A stretch of 64,000 nucleotides of DNA. Origin: a virus. The translations under genes were made by a program, and so were the position numbers. The stretch spans positions 1 through 64,000 of the IMG/VR virus record IMGVR_UViG_3300026519_000008, one strand, 5' to 3'. Positions 2,956-59,837 of this stretch are shown in pieces (position 1 is the stretch's first letter; every line of letters begins with the position of its first letter). The notes under the pieces were generated by a model that was given only the letters and a program-made list of their open reading frames with translations, did no database searches and was not told where the DNA came from.

Positions 2956-3148
2956 ATCTATTCTCCTTGGGTTATTTATTCCGTATCGTCACAAATACCA
3001 GACAACCAAAACTAAATAAAGAGGAATCAACTCTGCCCGGACTACCAAAGTTGCAGTCGTAATCGTACCCAGGCAATAAGACAAAAAAATCCCCAACGTG
3101 ATTTTCACGCTGGAGACTTGGCACTCTATGTTGAAATTGATTTCAGGT

Positions 3149-4037
3149 CTAGTCTGTGATCGTATCTACCCTGACCACGCTGCAAGACGGAAAAGCGTGT
3201 TCATCGCCGTTCTCCTCCCGAACGATAACGAACCCGCCCTCGTACCTGACAGATACTGTAGAGTAGTACCCACTGGTTCTGTACTCCCCTTGCTCAAATA
3301 CTATTTCCTCATAGGGAGTGACAATGGTGACCTTTTTAGGCACAGATCGACTCCTCATGATAGAGTATACCGCACTGCTGACACCACACCCGCTCAACCA
3401 ATTCGTTCTGATCTTCATCCAGCCCGCCCAGGTTAGACACCAACCCAATTCTAGCTGCAAACCTTACCCCATCTTCATAAATCACATAAACAGCGCTCTT
3501 TTCGTTACCACAAATCACGCAACGCTGTGACTTCAACACTGTAGAACTCCTATCTGGTGTTCTCCACAGACTGATCCAGCGCATCATCAAGAAGATCCAG
3601 CCCCAGTCCGGTTACCAGCTCGTCTCCGAGCTTTAGCACTTCGTCCTTGGTAACCTTACCGTCGTCAGTAATGGAATCTTTCGCCCACCGATAAAGAATC
3701 AACGCTCCCTTAATCGCCAGCACCCATTTTAACCCCATCAGCCTTTTCTCCTCTTTTTCCATGTAGTCCTTTTTGCTTTCTTTCCTTCCGCCTTTTCTTC
3801 TTCCTCCAACTCTTTTTGCTCATTAATTACGGTCTCCTTGATTGGAATGTCACCACCACACATTGAACAGGCTGTTTTTGGACCCTTTACAGTCTCCCTA
3901 GTATCTGCGGGCTGGTAGTAAGCGTTCACATAACCAGTCCCCTCAATTGGATCTTCAATAAGCACTGCATCCATTCCACAAACCGGACAAGGCTGTTTGT
4001 ACTCCATTCTTTGCCTGTTCATAATCCCACCTCCCAC
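3149..4037 (-). other. Four overlapping small hypothetical genes (3149-3460, 3336-3590 Zn-ribbon, 3550-3762 membrane-like, 3738-4037 Zn-ribbon)
   Basis: ORF track; CxxC pairs; tight packing; exact starts uncertain. Confidence 0.55.
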
Positions 4038-4042
4038 AATGA

Positions 4043-4717
4043 CTATGCAGTAGTCTGAGCTTTTATCATATCTTTGTGTTTCAGTTTCACAATAATACGA
4101 TTACCAAACCCATCTAATACAGGAACTGCTGGAACTCCTACTAGCCCTTCAGCCTGACACTTAGTATTCTCTGCAACCGTTGATTCAAATCCATCCCTAC
4201 ACAACCTCTCCATGTCATGAAGCGTTCCGGTCAAAACTACAGGAACTAACTTGAACCCTAAATGATCCCCCACTTCCTGCATCTGAATTCTAGTGAACCA
4301 GTGACCATCCGCCCACACGTCAAACAGTATAAACCCTTGGTCTTTCCTGTACGATCCTCCTTTTTGAATCTTAAGCCCATAACCCTCACCAAAGAGAACA
4401 GCCGGATAATCTCCAAATATATCAGCCAATGCTTCGGCAAGATTGGCGGACGATCTTGGCAAATCATGCAACTCATCATCCGTGAACCGTTGCATCAATC
4501 CAGCCGGAATCTGCGCCCTATCGGTCCGACCTAATATACGCACACTGGTTCCAGACCATACCAATCTAATATTTGTTCCGTCTACTTTCTCTGTAAATAC
4601 CCACTTATTGGAGGCTAGGTATTCAAACTCCTCAGTTGTGTACTTACCCAAAATGAGCTTATGAGTCTTCGGATCGCGCTTGTAAAGAGATTGAATTTTA
4701 GGATAACGCTCCGACAT
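4043..4717 (-). CDS. ATP-dependent RNA ligase (Rnl2-like nucleotidyltransferase domain)
   Basis: Motif I EKVDGTN, FGEGYG, FILFDV, EGLV, IVKLK; start at MSERYPK with AGGAG RBS. Confidence 0.85.
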   Translation of the reverse strand: MSERYPKIQSLYKRDPKTHKLILGKYTTEEFEYLASNKWVFTEKVDGTNIRLVWSGTSVRILGRTDRAQIPAGLMQRFTDDELHDLPRSSANLAEALADIFGDYPAVLFGEGYGLKIQKGGSYRKDQGFILFDVWADGHWFTRIQMQEVGDHLGFKLVPVVLTGTLHDMERLCRDGFESTVAENTKCQAEGLVGVPAVPVLDGFGNRIIVKLKHKDMIKAQTTA

Positions 4718-4839
4718 TACACCTCTCCTTCTAATCCAAACAAGGTGGCGGGGTGATGCAAGGCCCAGGGCACGTCCCATCTTTCGAGAGCATCAATGGA
4801 ACCTTGCATCCTGAAACATTTACCCGATTGGCACGTCTG

Positions 4840-5253
4840 CTAATCCAATAATGTATAATCCACGCGACGGGAAGCCCACTCAAGCAAATTACGATCAACC
4901 AGATCAAACTCAAAAGAAGATCCATACTCACCCTCCGCCCACTGAAGACATTTAACAGCCTTCTCTACCTGACCCTGTAGAATCTCCAACTGCCTACGTT
5001 TTCTCATGATGTACGAGTAAAGCGCAGCTTTCTTATCCAAATGAGCAAATTTATTCTTTGTATTCAGGTACATAAACCTTCTGAGTGACCAACCAGGACC
5101 AAGATACGTTGTACCGTAACGAAATAGAACAATCCACACCCCACACTGTGTCCGCTTAACCACTTTGTACTCTTCCAAAATCCCCCGGGCCGGTGCGCCA
5201 TACACCTTAAAATCTACATACCTATACAAGACCGTACCTACGTCAACGTCCAT
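4840..5253 (-). CDS. Hypothetical protein
   Basis: AGGAGG RBS, 137 aa. Confidence 0.6.
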   Translation of the reverse strand: MDVDVGTVLYRYVDFKVYGAPARGILEEYKVVKRTQCGVWIVLFRYGTTYLGPGWSLRRFMYLNTKNKFAHLDKKAALYSYIMRKRRQLEILQGQVEKAVKCLQWAEGEYGSSFEFDLVDRNLLEWASRRVDYTLLD

Positions 5254-5268
5254 CCCGCCCTCCTTTCA

Positions 5269-5613
5269 TTATAGCAGGATTCCCTCCGCCTTTTGCTTCT
5301 TGAACGATTCCCTGACCATCTTACGCAGCTCTTTTTCCACCACCTGATCAACTACTCCTCTAGCCAGCCTAACCGCCGCCTCCCCGACCATTTCCACAAT
5401 ATCCAACTGCGCAACCAGCTTTTTCACAGCCTCATTGGCTGCCTTATGCACCATAATATACCCTAGCCCACCTTTAGACCCATACGTTGGCTTTGCAAAT
5501 GCTTCGGCAATCGCCTCATCAACAATATACCGCAGATCATTGAGTTGAAGCTCTACTACCAACCTGACCGTCTCACCTTCCACCGCCTGACCGCCTCTCG
5601 GAGGACACTCCAT
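5269..5613 (-). CDS. Hypothetical protein
   Basis: AAGGAG RBS before MECPP. Confidence 0.55.
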   Translation of the reverse strand: MECPPRGGQAVEGETVRLVVELQLNDLRYIVDEAIAEAFAKPTYGSKGGLGYIMVHKAANEAVKKLVAQLDIVEMVGEAAVRLARGVVDQVVEKELRKMVRESFKKQKAEGILL

Positions 5614-5639
5614 GTTTTCACTCCTTTCTGAAATCAATT

Positions 5640-58131: not shown

Positions 58132-58312
58132 CTTGAGTGCCTATGAGTGTATTATTCGTCTTCCTGCTTGAGCTTGTAACTCTCAGGTACCTTGAACTTA
58201 AAAGATAACCCTGAGCACTTTTCGACCACCCTCAGTTCCTTCTGCAACAGTCGCCACACGAACTTGATTGCATCATCAGGCTTGACTTGAGGAGGAATGG
58301 TGGCCGTTACCG

Positions 58313-58663
58313 TCAGATCGACTTTGATTCCCTGCTTTCTGATTGTTCTTGGGTCAGCCATTCAGTCAATTCCCCTGATTTGATGAGTTTGTTGAAATAC
58401 TTGTTTTCAGCCGTCAGAGCCTCTTCCCGCAACGGCCACCGTTTTGCGTCATCAAAGCTTGTAGCAGTAAAGCCTCCTTCGGCCAGAAATTCGCCAGCGT
58501 TAGGACCTACTTGAAGCTTCACCCACCAATTCCCGGCCTCGTCCGCCTCTACAATTGATGCTCGGATAATTGTCTTTGCCCCCTCCAGTCCGCCAACGAT
58601 AGAGTCGCACCACAGCCCGATAATTGTACCATCAGGCTTGATTACATAGGCCCGCTCCATCAC
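58313..58663 (-). CDS. Conserved hypothetical protein of DUF1257/DUF2997 clusters
   Basis: I.PDGT...L...RAS.VE....G.W......R.EAL.AE pattern, recalled from such clusters. Confidence 0.55.
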   Translation of the reverse strand: MMERAYVIKPDGTIIGLWCDSIVGGLEGAKTIIRASIVEADEAGNWWVKLQVGPNAGEFLAEGGFTATSFDDAKRWPLREEALTAENKYFNKLIKSGELTEWLTQEQSESRESKSI

Positions 58664-58848
58664 CGCACCTTGGTGCGTGCATAGTCACGCTTGTAATAGT
58701 CAGATGTCTTTTCCTGCTCCAGTACACTGCCAAGCTGCTGCATCATCTTTGCGGTGGCCTCCACACACGCAGGTCCTGCCACCCCGTTGACCTCCATCGT
58801 GATCATCCCATCCTTTGAGATCTTGAAAGTCACCCGCTTCTTTTTCAT
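58660..58848 (-). CDS. DUF2997 family protein
   Basis: I..DG....V.GV.G..C...T......LG......T.DYY. Confidence 0.75.
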   Translation of the reverse strand: MKKKRVTFKISKDGMITMEVNGVAGPACVEATAKMMQQLGSVLEQEKTSDYYKRDYARTKVR

Positions 58849-58859
58849 CCCGATCCTCC

Positions 58860-59213
58860 TTAGAAGTTCATCACCAGAACACGATTGCCCATGTTGTCAG
58901 TGGTCACAGAGCTGACCGTCCCGCCAGACCGAGAAGCCTGCTTCCGAATCACAGCCTCAGCATATTCCTGGCAGAACTTCTGCCCATTGGTACGATCCAT
59001 CCAATACCAATCATGCTTGACGTCCCCATCCTTGGTGATGATCAGAGCCGGGCGGTCCTTCGACCCCAAAATAACGCAGTCTTCCTCAGTCCACCCGGCA
59101 TACTTGTTGCGGAACTGCTGGTCCCTGTGGACCTCAATTCCGAGCCGCTTGGCAGTTCCCTCCATCAGTCTCTTGTCTGTTACCTTAAGCAGCAGCTTGG
59201 TCATGTGAGACAT
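58860..59213 (-). CDS. DUF1257 (Ycf35-like) family protein
   Basis: MSHMT.....D...L......LG; D.Y; Q.YA; adjacent to DUF2997. Confidence 0.65.
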   Translation of the reverse strand: MSHMTKLLLKVTDKRLMEGTAKRLGIEVHRDQQFRNKYAGWTEEDCVILGSKDRPALIITKDGDVKHDWYWMDRTNGQKFCQEYAEAVIRKQASRSGGTVSSVTTDNMGNRVLVMNF

Positions 59214-59227
59214 TTCTTTCTCCTTTC

Positions 59228-59749
59228 CTATGTTGCCGTGAATGGACGGATTTTCCTCCGGCTACCCAATTTGGGAGTCGGAAGACCTCGTTCAATTTTG
59301 ATCATCTTCTTGAGCAGGGGTTTTGGTGGAAGCCTCTGATTCTTCAGCATTTTCCAGGAGATAGAGTTTGCCAGAACCAGCTGTTTCTCAAACACTTCCT
59401 TGCTAGACATGAATTTAGCCTTGGCCTTAAACCCAAACTCCACCGGCCACAGATCAAACGGCCTGATGGTGACAGTCTGGATATCATCCCCAGGTTTCAG
59501 CAGCCGCAGATATAATGACAGACTTTTTGCTGGCCGTCCAAACTCTGTCTGGTAGATGAAAAGCTTAACGTATTGGGTTGGTATTTGGTACTTGCTACCT
59601 GTTCCTATCGAGGTAGCCATACCAAATCTTGCGGCCTCCCACAAGGGAGTTTCTTCTTGGTCAGATAGTAGGAAGAGAAAGAACTTCACCGTTTTGGTGT
59701 CGTTTTTTCCAGTTTTAACCCCACCTGAGAATTCCACTTCATAATGCAT
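59228..59749 (-). CDS. Hypothetical protein
   Basis: Start MHYEV; promoter TTGACA-N18-TATCAT at 59792-59821. Confidence 0.6.
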   Translation of the reverse strand: MHYEVEFSGGVKTGKNDTKTVKFFLFLLSDQEETPLWEAARFGMATSIGTGSKYQIPTQYVKLFIYQTEFGRPAKSLSLYLRLLKPGDDIQTVTIRPFDLWPVEFGFKAKAKFMSSKEVFEKQLVLANSISWKMLKNQRLPPKPLLKKMIKIERGLPTPKLGSRRKIRPFTAT

Positions 59750-59837
59750 TTGACCCTCACCTGAAATTGATTTCAACCCGCCATGAATGGAATGATAACA
59801 GAACCGACGGGTGTTTGTCAACCATTGGTTCTTCCAC

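What the first reader, a model, noticed from the sequence alone, without database searches (positions are those of the whole stretch)
3132..59775. 23 perfect copies of a 14-bp quasi-palindrome spread through the window, often supplying stop codons
Seen: TGAAATCAATTTCA or its reverse complement about every 2.5 kb, with an invariant asymmetric CA/TG centre. It provides the TGA stop of at least six genes (ending 5640, 10596, 15727, 22150, 41934, 44941), abuts promoters (19220, 41923, 44930, 59762), and lies inside CDSs (30291, 32387, 50136, 56866). Inference: binding site of a phage-encoded dimeric protein acting as a global repressor/activator, a parS-like loading site for the ParB-like protein, or a genome-organising site. 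One copy sits directly upstream of the wHTH gene (26275) and one upstream of the glycosyltransferase (38734).
Basis: partly seen in the sequence, partly recalled or inferred. Interest (0 to 1): 0.8.

Follow-up and report, generated by a model that had tools for sequence, protein, structure and literature searches.

The report
Evenly spaced phage palindrome docking sites
This uncultured 92-kb phage, like cultured relatives that infect Stenotrophomonas and Rhodobacter, carries one 14-letter DNA palindrome about every 3 kb along its whole genome, most likely as docking sites for one of its own ParB-type DNA-binding proteins, and what the array does is still unknown.

Summary
All 23 copies are exact and none is expected by chance. 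The whole 92,373-bp virus record holds 31 exact copies and 3 near copies, in both orientations (16/15).

The sites are spaced more evenly than chance (CV 0.54; P about 2e-4). They fill tiny gene junctions, often supplying the TGA stop, and otherwise lie inside genes. Only 3 of 31 lie next to a sigma-70-like promoter.

The feature is clade-wide. Relatives carry their own 6-2-6 version, TG[C/A]NNN-YR-NNN[G/T]CA. These include the cultured phages Summit (34 sites in 95.7 kb) and RcZahn (about 28), whose papers do not mention it.

The best candidate reader is the product of 40827-41846:
- Its fold resembles ParB/KorB DNA-binding domains.
- The start of its predicted recognition helix co-varies with the motif (family-wise P <= 0.001, resting on about 3 lineages).
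- A site lies 42-77 nt upstream of its gene in 6 of 21 genomes.

The function of the array (genome-wide coating, silencing or organisation) is inferred, not shown.

This scan has noted similar evenly spaced ParB-type palindrome arrays in other phage genomes. The closest published parallel is the Cluster O mycobacteriophage 17-bp repeat.

The parts
3132..3145 (-). site copy, intergenic
5629..5642 (+). site copy; its TGA is the stop of ORF 5640-5990(-); 14 nt before the next start
6795..6808 (+). site copy, intergenic, 10 nt upstream of ATG of 5987-6784(-)
10464..10477 (+). near copy TGAAATCAATTGCA; one half-site is the TGCAAT type seen in relatives
10585..10598 (+). site copy; supplies the stop of ORF 10596-11147(-)
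12395..12408 (+). site copy in a stretch of uncertain coding
12795..12808 (-). site copy in a stretch of uncertain coding
13931..13944 (-). site copy in a stretch of uncertain coding
15179..15192 (+). site copy in a stretch of uncertain coding
15716..15729 (-). site copy; supplies the stop of ORF 15727-16032(-)
19220..19233 (-). site copy just after a terminator-like hairpin; stop of small ORF 19231-19383(-)
20572..20585 (-). site copy, intergenic, after a terminator-like hairpin, 17 nt before a start
22139..22152 (+). site copy; supplies the stop of ORF 22150-22668(-)
24816..24829 (-). site copy about 29 nt upstream of a start codon
26275..26288 (+). site copy about 16 nt upstream of the likely start of the wHTH gene
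30291..30304 (+). site copy inside the UvrD-like helicase gene (encodes EIDF)
32387..32400 (-). site copy inside an 82-aa ORF
38734..38747 (-). site copy 14 nt upstream of the glycosyltransferase start
41923..41936 (+). site copy; stop of the AAA gene; 9 nt upstream of the TTGACA -35 of the p339 promoter and 77 nt upstream of the p339 start (candidate autoregulatory site)
44930..44943 (+). site copy; stop of the RuvC-like gene; 3 nt upstream of the -35 of the AAA-p339-p355 promoter
50136..50149 (+). site copy inside the DEAD/ResIII helicase gene (encodes EIDF)
53529..53542 (+). site copy at the 5' edge of ORF 52683-53576(-)
56866..56879 (-). site copy inside a 339-aa ORF (encodes LKSIS)
59762..59775 (-). 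site copy just downstream of promoter-like TTGACA-N18-TATCAT at 59821
40827..41846 (-). p339: candidate reader of the sites; ParB-type HTH DNA-binding domain (residues about 40-190), second helical domain, acidic tail
36261..37193 (-). ParB/KorB/Noc-fold protein (GEHR and MNxIRG motifs) next to TerS/TerL; possible partner, not the sequence reader
41934..44852 (-). AAA+ ATPase with an intein; first gene of the conserved AAA-p339-p355 cassette
39463..40530 (-). p355, an MgsA_C-like helical protein; third gene of the cassette

Best explanation
The 14-bp words are docking sites for a phage-encoded, sequence-specific DNA-binding protein.

How the site is read (inferred):
- The most likely reader is the 339-aa product of 40827-41846 (p339), which carries a ParB-type helix-turn-helix domain.
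- A p339 dimer would read the two TGAAAT arms.
- The invariant central pyrimidine-purine step (CA here; CG, CA or TA in relatives) would serve as a deformable hinge.

How the sites are laid out (shown):
- Selection keeps about one site per 3 kb along the whole chromosome.
- Sites are tucked into gene junctions where one exists and written into coding sequence where none does.
- One site lies on p339's own promoter region, which suggests autoregulation.

What the array does (inferred, not shown): it nucleates a genome-wide nucleoprotein state, such as coating, silencing or organisation of the phage chromosome. This may involve the separate ParB/KorB/Noc-fold protein at 36261-37193 and the neighbouring AAA+ ATPase, by analogy with the KorB-OB, Noc-NBS and ParB-parS systems.
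For: The array is real and under selection:
- 31 exact copies against 0 expected.
- Even spacing: CV 0.54 (P = 2.5e-4) here; 0.44 (P < 5e-5) in Summit; 0.59, 0.55 and 0.65 in G001, G004 and G003.
- 12 of 31 sites lie outside or at the edge of ORFs in a genome that is 93% ORF (P = 3e-7), and the same holds in relatives.
- In-gene copies occur in two reading frames.
- There is no orientation bias relative to transcription, 16 to 15.

It is clade-wide, with lineage-specific versions:
-.
- In a 2.6-Mb MAG the local version occurs only on the phage contig.

- The AF2 model has pLDDT about 95 for residues 40-190.
- The best structural matches are ParB/Spo0J DNA-binding domains (1vz0 Z 7.2; 6s6h Z 7.1), followed by KorB, SopB and VirB.
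- Atlas and Pfam give weak leads to DUF3102 and a ParB HTH.
- In a sliding-window partial Mantel test over 21 genomes, the best of 226 windows is residues 107-114. This is the start of the predicted recognition helix, which I had flagged before the scan. r = 0.57, family-wise P <= 0.001.
- That window stays the best in every single-genome jackknife.
- A site lies 42-77 nt upstream of the p339 ORF in 6 of 21 genomes (0.6 expected; P = 4e-5), or just upstream of the AAA gene that heads its operon in others.

Link to the ParB-like protein: among p339-bearing genomes, the dense exact arrays occur where the ParB-like protein is also present. Those without it have few or degenerate sites.
Against: - No binding was measured.
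- The fold match for p339 is middling for a helical domain (Z about 7), and Foldseek found nothing.
- The co-variation signal rests on about three lineages with a changed core half-site (this phage, L245, G002). It weakens to r = 0.38 (P = 0.027) without two of them and is lost without all three. In a 12-genome subset it is not significant.
- Partial Mantel tests do not fully remove shared ancestry.
- p339 homologues also occur in genomes where I found no array (G006/L173, G011, G013) or only 2-3 sites (Vibrio phages J14 and sm030).
- The MerR-like HTH protein 48287-49015 is conserved and was not tested for co-variation.
- The function of the array is pure inference.
Confidence: 0.5

Rival explanations
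1. The sites are parS-like loading sites read directly by the terminase-adjacent ParB-like protein (36261-37193). This protein then spreads or slides from them.
For: - The AF2 model matches KorB, Noc and ParB over 180-256 columns (E about 2e-7).
- Profile hits fall on ParB and Noc N-domains.
- It has motifs like box II and box III (GEHR, MNxIRG).
- It is conserved next to TerS/TerL in all motif-bearing relatives.
- Dense arrays co-occur with it.
Against: - The helix in the recognition position is acidic (DEFEELIE type; read from the alignments).
- There is no co-variation with the motif (maximum partial r 0.29 over about 230 windows in 25 genomes).
- Clear homologues occur in phages with no array (G006-G009).
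Confidence: 0.15
2. The sites are operators of a conventional global transcription regulator (repressor or activator, or L5-type 'stoperator' roadblocks) that controls the lytic genes, possibly in a plasmid-prophage state.
For: - Three sites abut strong sigma-70-like promoters, including those of the AAA-p339-p355 unit.
- Many sites sit in short intergenic junctions, as L5 stoperators do.
- The relatives DLP3 and DLP5 are temperate and are carried as phagemids (PMC7326821, PMC5834331).
Against: - 28 of 31 sites are not near a promoter-like sequence (P = 0.18 against random).
- About a third lie deep inside long genes.
- There is no orientation bias (16 to 15), unlike the orientation bias I recall for stoperators.
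- Even spacing is not expected for operators.
- No integrase, repressor or ParA was identified here, though only part of the proteome was scanned.
Confidence: 0.2
3. The sites are bound by a host factor. One candidate is a LacI/PurR-family regulator, whose operators have the form TGNAANCGNTTNCA. Another is a host nuclease or uptake signal that the phage exploits or titrates.
For: - The family consensus TG[C/A]AAN-CG-NTT[G/T]CA fits the LacI-family operator pattern as I recall it.
- CGCAAACGTTTGCG in L174 equals the PurR box core, also from memory.
Against: - The same motif family occurs in phages of Stenotrophomonas, Rhodobacter and Vibrio and in uncultured phages of 36-58% G+C.
- It co-varies with a phage protein.
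- In the MAG G010 the exact local version is absent from 2.55 Mb outside the phage contig.
- No LacI-type domain was found in the phage proteins scanned.
Confidence: 0.07
4. The words act at the RNA level, as mini-hairpins or processing sites between cistrons. Alternatively they are targets of a site-specific nickase or DNA-modifying enzyme (T5-like nicks, or glycosylation by the neighbouring GT).
For: - Many copies sit exactly between cistrons.
- A GT and a ParB/Srx-fold protein lie in one operon with the terminase.
Against: - The asymmetric centre shows no bias relative to the transcribed strand.
- The possible hairpin is only 5 A/U-rich pairs.
- Copies occur deep inside genes.
- Nothing ties a nuclease or modifier to the motif.
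Confidence: 0.08

Closest known systems
KorB and its OB operators on IncP plasmid RK2 (PMC11790492)
   Same: - A short palindrome is dispersed over a mobile replicon (12 OB sites, from memory).
- It is read by a ParB-family HTH domain.
- KorB acts at a distance, as a CTP clamp that slides up to 1.5 kb (abstract of PMC11790492).
- KorB structures are among the matches of both p339 (1r71, 8qa8) and the ParB-like protein (8qa9).
   Different: - Here there are 31-34 sites at even spacing of about 3 kb over a 92-kb phage genome.
- The DNA-binding-domain-like part and the N-terminal NTPase-like part are on two separate proteins.
- No KorA-like or ParA-like partner was identified.
- CTP binding was not tested.
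17-bp dyad repeat of Cluster O mycobacteriophages (Corndog; PMC4351075)
   Same: - More than 30 near-invariant copies of one palindrome occur throughout a phage genome, both between and inside genes.
- Most are not near promoters, and the repeat is absent from the host genome.
- Its function is unknown (read).
   Different: - The phage lineage and the word are unrelated (7-3-7, TGTTCGGNNNCCGAACA).
- In the passages I read, no reader protein was named and even spacing was not mentioned.
- Here a candidate reader is supported by co-variation.
Noc and its NBS sites, and ParB-parS, on bacterial chromosomes
   Same: - The sites are 14-16 bp palindromes read by a ParB-family HTH.
- Noc has tens of sites scattered over the chromosome (from memory).
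- Noc and ParB structures match the phage ParB-like protein.
   Different: - These are chromosomal systems with a single-chain ParB architecture.
- The arms have the opposite arrangement (TTTC...GAAA inward in parS and NBS, against TGAAAT...ATTTCA here).
Mycobacteriophage L5 stoperators and phage P1 C1 operators (from memory)
   Same: Dozens of copies of one short repressor site are spread over a phage genome, many in short intergenic gaps.
   Different: - Those sites are asymmetric, and the L5 sites are oriented with transcription.
- The sites here are dyad-symmetric, show no orientation bias, lie partly inside genes and are evenly spaced.

Membership tests
ParB-family site arrays (parS / OB / NBS type) | Short palindromic DNA site of about 13-16 bp | tested here: met
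   14-bp 6-2-6 dyad, extended to 16 bp by the Y/R flanks
ParB-family site arrays (parS / OB / NBS type) | Reader protein has the ParB-type HTH DNA-binding domain | tested here: inconclusive
   The top structural matches of the p339 model are Spo0J and ParB DNA-binding domains at Z 7.1-7.2, with KorB, SopB and VirB lower. Foldseek found nothing. Pfam gave only sub-threshold DUF3102 and DUF1016_N.
ParB-family site arrays (parS / OB / NBS type) | The same polypeptide carries the N-terminal CTP-binding domain (GERR box) | tested here: not met
   No ParB_N-type domain was detected in p339: Pfam found none and residues 1-36 of the model are disordered. The ParB_N-like domain, with GEHR instead of GERR, is on a separate protein, 36261-37193.
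ParB-family site arrays (parS / OB / NBS type) | CTP-dependent clamp closure and sliding from the site | not testable with these tools
   Needs biochemistry
ParB-family site arrays (parS / OB / NBS type) | ParA-type ATPase partner (partition systems) | not tested
   None was seen among about 50 proteins scanned, but the proteome was not scanned completely.
L5-type stoperators | Asymmetric site oriented with the direction of transcription | tested here: not met
   Dyad-symmetric arms; the centre orientation is 16 to 15 relative to the transcribed strand.
Promoter-linked operator regulon | Sites concentrated at promoters | tested here: not met
   3 of 31 sites lie within 80 nt of a sigma-70-like promoter; 1.45 expected; P = 0.18.
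Cluster O-type genome-wide dyad repeats | More than 30 near-invariant copies throughout the genome, in and between genes, mostly away from promoters | tested here: met
   description of Corndog read. This is a likeness of pattern only; the words and the phages are unrelated.
LacI-family operators | A LacI-type HTH regulator that reads TGNAANCGNTTNCA | tested here: inconclusive
   The word fits the pattern as I recall it. No LacI domain was found in the phage proteins scanned, and no host genome was available.

The most novel reading that the evidence does not exclude
This would be a 'split ParB' system. p339, the half that resembles the DNA-binding domain, marks evenly spaced sites. There it loads or anchors the separate ParB/KorB/Noc-fold NTPase protein, perhaps together with the AAA+ ATPase. 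The whole phage chromosome would then be coated or tagged as self, for protection, silencing of a plasmid prophage, or hand-over to the adjacent terminase. The system has expanded from 2-3 operators (Vibrio phages J14 and sm030) to lattices of 30 or more sites (this phage, Summit, RcZahn).
Probability: 0.25. Interest if true: 0.85.

Novelty: new variant of a known kind. Interest (0 to 1): 0.65.

Why it matters
A dense, evenly spaced, selection-maintained lattice of protein-docking sites across a whole phage chromosome implies a genome-scale process that phage biology has not yet explained. Candidates are coating, silencing, self-marking and organisation for packaging.

The same lattice is present in cultured, published phages: Stenotrophomonas phage Summit, Rhodobacter phage RcZahn, and in weaker form Vibrio phage LV6. 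Their genome papers, as far as I could read them, do not mention it. The question can therefore be tested at the bench, with a named candidate reader, predicted specificity residues and defined sites.

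Tried and rejected
- An exact-peptide search for TerL relatives in IMG/VR found nothing. The profile search worked.
- The one genome-contig scan found only two MAG contigs, so the host remains unknown. The host-chromosome frequency could be checked only in the MAG G010.
- Foldseek of the p339 model against the PDB gave no meaningful match.
- PDB sequence-profile searches for p339 and p355 gave nothing.
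- tblastn of p339 against cultured phages found only 2 weak hits. The profile search found more.
- Promoter association was tested and rejected.
- L162 looked like a motif-free close relative, but the rest of its contig carries the motif.
- L173/G006 showed only unrelated hairpins.
- Two equal 2,284-bp gaps in G001 are not a duplication (26% identity).
- Co-variation restricted to 12 genomes lacked power for both p339 and the control p355.
- TerS and the MerR-like protein were not tested for co-variation because too few sequences or motif types were available.
- Literature searches for the 14-mers, for DUF3102 and for evenly spaced phage palindromes found nothing relevant.

Full report
**1. 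Observation**

None occurred in 100 dinucleotide-preserving shuffles.

The window is the first 64 kb of a 92,373-bp IMG/VR virus record. CheckV estimates it as 79% complete, with linear ends. The whole record holds 31 exact copies, 16 forward and 15 reverse, and no copy of the backwards control.

The word is close to all-or-nothing. Within two mismatches the window has only one extra variant, at 10464. The full record has three near copies. One has a TGCAAT arm and one has a TA centre. The flanks extend the dyad to Y-TGAAATCAATTTCA-R.

**2. Anatomy in this genome**

Nearly all genes lie on the minus strand, and G+C skew is strong. Relative to the transcribed strand, the asymmetric centre reads TG 16 times and CA 15 times. 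Recognition is therefore at the level of duplex DNA and is blind to orientation.

Twelve of the 31 sites lie outside ORFs or on their edges, in a genome that is 93% ORF (P = 3e-7).
- Typically the leading TGA of the word is the stop of the upstream gene, and the next start codon follows 10-35 nt later.
- Six to seven stops are supplied in this way.
- Other copies lie deep inside long genes, including two helicases, a 1257-aa gene, a 765-aa gene and the 2569-aa tape-measure-sized gene. They are read in two frames, as EIDF/EINF or LKLIS/LKSIS.

Spacing is far more even than random. The CV of the gaps is 0.54 against 0.96 simulated (P = 2.5e-4).

Only three sites lie within 80 nt of a sigma-70-like promoter. 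This is not more than chance gives (P = 0.18). Some sites follow terminator-like hairpins. The layout looks like 'one site per about 3 kb, placed where it costs least', not like a promoter regulon.

**3. The feature is clade-wide**

IMG/VR relatives found through TerL (43-48% identity) each carry their own 14-bp 6-2-6 dyad. Whole-record counts:

| Record | Size | Site | Copies |
|---|---|---|---|
| G001 | 98 kb | TGCAAACGTTTGCA | 17 |
| G003 | 100 kb | TGCAAKCGMTTGCA | 16 |
| G004 | 27 kb | TGCAAKCGMTTGCA | 12 |
| G002 | 86 kb | looser WACAATTAATTGTW | about 11 |

About 27 of 80 loci fetched through the ParB-like protein carry variants. Some have mixed arms, TGAAAT plus TGCAAG. A Desulfovibrio-labelled MAG contig has TGCATCCGGATGCA. 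The family is TG[C/A]NNN-YR-NNN[G/T]CA. The centre is always a pyrimidine-purine step (CG, CA/TG or TA), apart from one relative (L159) whose commonest copies have AA.

Cultured phages carry it as well:
- Stenotrophomonas phage Summit (Delepquintavirus) has 34 sites over its complete 95,728 bp. 26 are exact TGCAAT-YR-ATTGCA, 25 of them with the same CA centre as here. The spacing CV is 0.44 (P < 5e-5).
- Rhodobacter phage RcZahn has about 28 sites.
- Vibrio phage LV6 has about 10 looser ones.
- Vibrio phages J14 and sm030 have only 2-3.

Even spacing also holds in G001 (P = 0.018), G004 (0.037) and, weakly, G003 (0.066). In-gene sites sit at about the same relative position of orthologous genes in G001 and G003: the helicase at 0.81 and 0.80, and the glycosyltransferase at 0.39 and 0.38.

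In the 2.6-Mb MAG, the four exact copies of the local word all lie on the 48-kb phage contig. One 1-mismatch copy lies elsewhere. This speaks against a host-chromosome motif, although MAG binning is not proof of host.

The papers on DLP3, DLP5 and RcZahn do not mention the repeat. No held paper contains these 14-mers in a phage context.

**4. Who reads it**

Annotation gives a conserved block: AAA+ ATPase (with an intein), p339, p355, glycosyltransferase, ParB-like protein, TerS-like protein and TerL. A recombination and replication module lies alongside it.

*The ParB-like protein (36261-37193).*
- It is a genuine ParB/KorB/Noc-fold protein. Foldseek gives E about 2e-7 to 8qa9, 7nfu, 6sdk and 7bm8 over 180-256 columns, and a profile hits 4umk and 7ol9.
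- It has GEHR and MNxIRG motifs in the places of ParB boxes II and III.
- The helix in the recognition position is acidic (read from the alignments).
- No 8-residue window co-varies with the motif (maximum partial r 0.29).
- Clear homologues occur in phages without any array.

*p339 (40827-41846).*
- It has no Pfam family.
- Its AF2 model is confident for residues 40-190.
- The best matches of that model among 48,161 chains are the DNA-binding domains of Spo0J (1vz0, Z 7.2) and ParB-parS (6s6h, Z 7.1). KorB, SopB and VirB follow further down. These Z values are middling for helical domains.
- Atlas and Pfam give weak leads to DUF3102 and a ParB HTH.

*Co-variation test on p339.* I asked, over 21 genomes, which 8-residue window of p339 diverges in step with the half-site once divergence of the rest of the protein is removed. 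The best of 226 windows is residues 107-114. This is the turn and the start of the predicted recognition helix, which I had picked out by eye beforehand.
- r = 0.57, and no permutation out of 1000 reached it.
- Genomes with a TGCAA core keep the sequence xYRKAxY there.
- The three lineages with a changed core have SYRTGKH (this phage, TGAAAT), DPRVAYS (TGCATC) and HPSKAES (TACAAT).
- The window survives every single-genome jackknife. It weakens to r = 0.38 (P = 0.027) without two of those lineages and disappears without all three.
- A 12-genome subset has no power.
- The signal therefore amounts to about three independent events.

*Sites next to the p339 gene.* A site lies 42-77 nt upstream of the p339 ORF in 6 of 21 genomes (0.6 expected; P = 4e-5). 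In others it lies just upstream of the AAA gene that heads the operon. That is the usual signature of an autoregulated DNA-binding protein.

*Co-occurrence with the ParB-like protein.* Among p339-bearing genomes, dense exact arrays occur where the ParB-like protein is also present (this phage, Summit, RcZahn, G001, G003, G004). G002, LV6, J14 and sm030 lack it and have loose or few sites. G006 has both proteins but no array in the 38 kb available.

**5. Most likely mechanism**

Shown:
- The array exists, is under selection, is evenly spaced and is blind to orientation.
- It is specific to the phage lineage.
- It tracks one helix of a phage protein whose gene it also precedes.

Inferred:
- A p339 dimer reads the two arms.
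- The invariant YR centre is the flexible step at the dyad.
- The array nucleates a genome-wide nucleoprotein state, possibly with the ParB/KorB/Noc-fold protein acting as a spreading or bridging partner and with the AAA+ ATPase.

The purpose is open. Options are silencing or partition of a plasmid prophage, marking or protecting self DNA, and organising DNA for headful packaging. DLP5 is carried as a phagemid (PMC5834331, PMC7326821). RcZahn is circularly permuted (PMC8601537).

**6. Comparison with what is known**

The nearest mechanistic model is KorB with its OB operators on RK2, a ParB-family CTP clamp that slides up to 1.5 kb from its sites (PMC11790492).

The nearest published pattern is the 17-bp dyad repeat of Cluster O mycobacteriophages. 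It has 34 invariant copies in and between genes, mostly away from promoters, is absent from the host, and has no known function (PMC4351075).

This case differs in three ways:
- The word and the phage lineage are different.
- The spacing is demonstrably even.
- The ParB-like functions are split over two proteins.

It is not a member of the single-chain ParB family by that criterion.

**7. Relation to earlier notes of this scan**

Earlier AI notes describe evenly spaced 'ParB-type' palindrome arrays in many other phage genomes. One of them proposes a ParB split over two genes. I treated these as leads only. My own tests agree in part with that reading.

**8. Caveats**

- Gene calls are my own crude ORF picks.
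- The host is unknown.
- Nothing here measures binding.

Noticed in passing
window 41934-44852 (-): The AAA+ ATPase gene is interrupted by an intein with a LAGLIDADG homing-endonuclease domain (Pfam Intein_splicing and LAGLIDADG_3). Several TerL homologues in the protein database also carry inteins.
   Followed up: no
G000 62086-64710 (-), L239:2086-4710: One 874-aa ORF fuses a uracil-DNA-glycosylase-superfamily domain to a family A DNA polymerase.
   Followed up: no
whole record G000: A second over-represented word, with core CGTGGGGAAAGA / TCTTTCCCCACG, occurs 14-15 times.
   Followed up: no
window 1-64000: G+C skew is very strong and uniform (about -0.17 to -0.30 per 4 kb). Almost all genes lie on the minus strand.
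   Followed up: partly
window 4043-4780, 5987-6784, 18217-18771 (-): PHROG matches to RNA ligase, phosphoadenosine-phosphosulfate reductase and an ArdA-type anti-restriction protein among the early genes.
   Followed up: no
G001 (L142-L143) 35659, 37943, 40227: Three successive sites are exactly 2,284 bp apart, although the two intervals are unrelated in sequence (26% identity). This may be coincidence.
   Followed up: partly
p339 orthologues, C-terminus (alignment A5): A long acidic, low-confidence tail ends in a conserved D-I-D/N-x-L-L-G peptide in most orthologues. It looks like a partner-docking motif.
   Followed up: no
window 48287-49015 (-): A conserved MerR/excisionase-like HTH protein with a basic N-terminal region is encoded next to the helicase in G001-G004. 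It was not tested as an alternative reader.
   Followed up: partly
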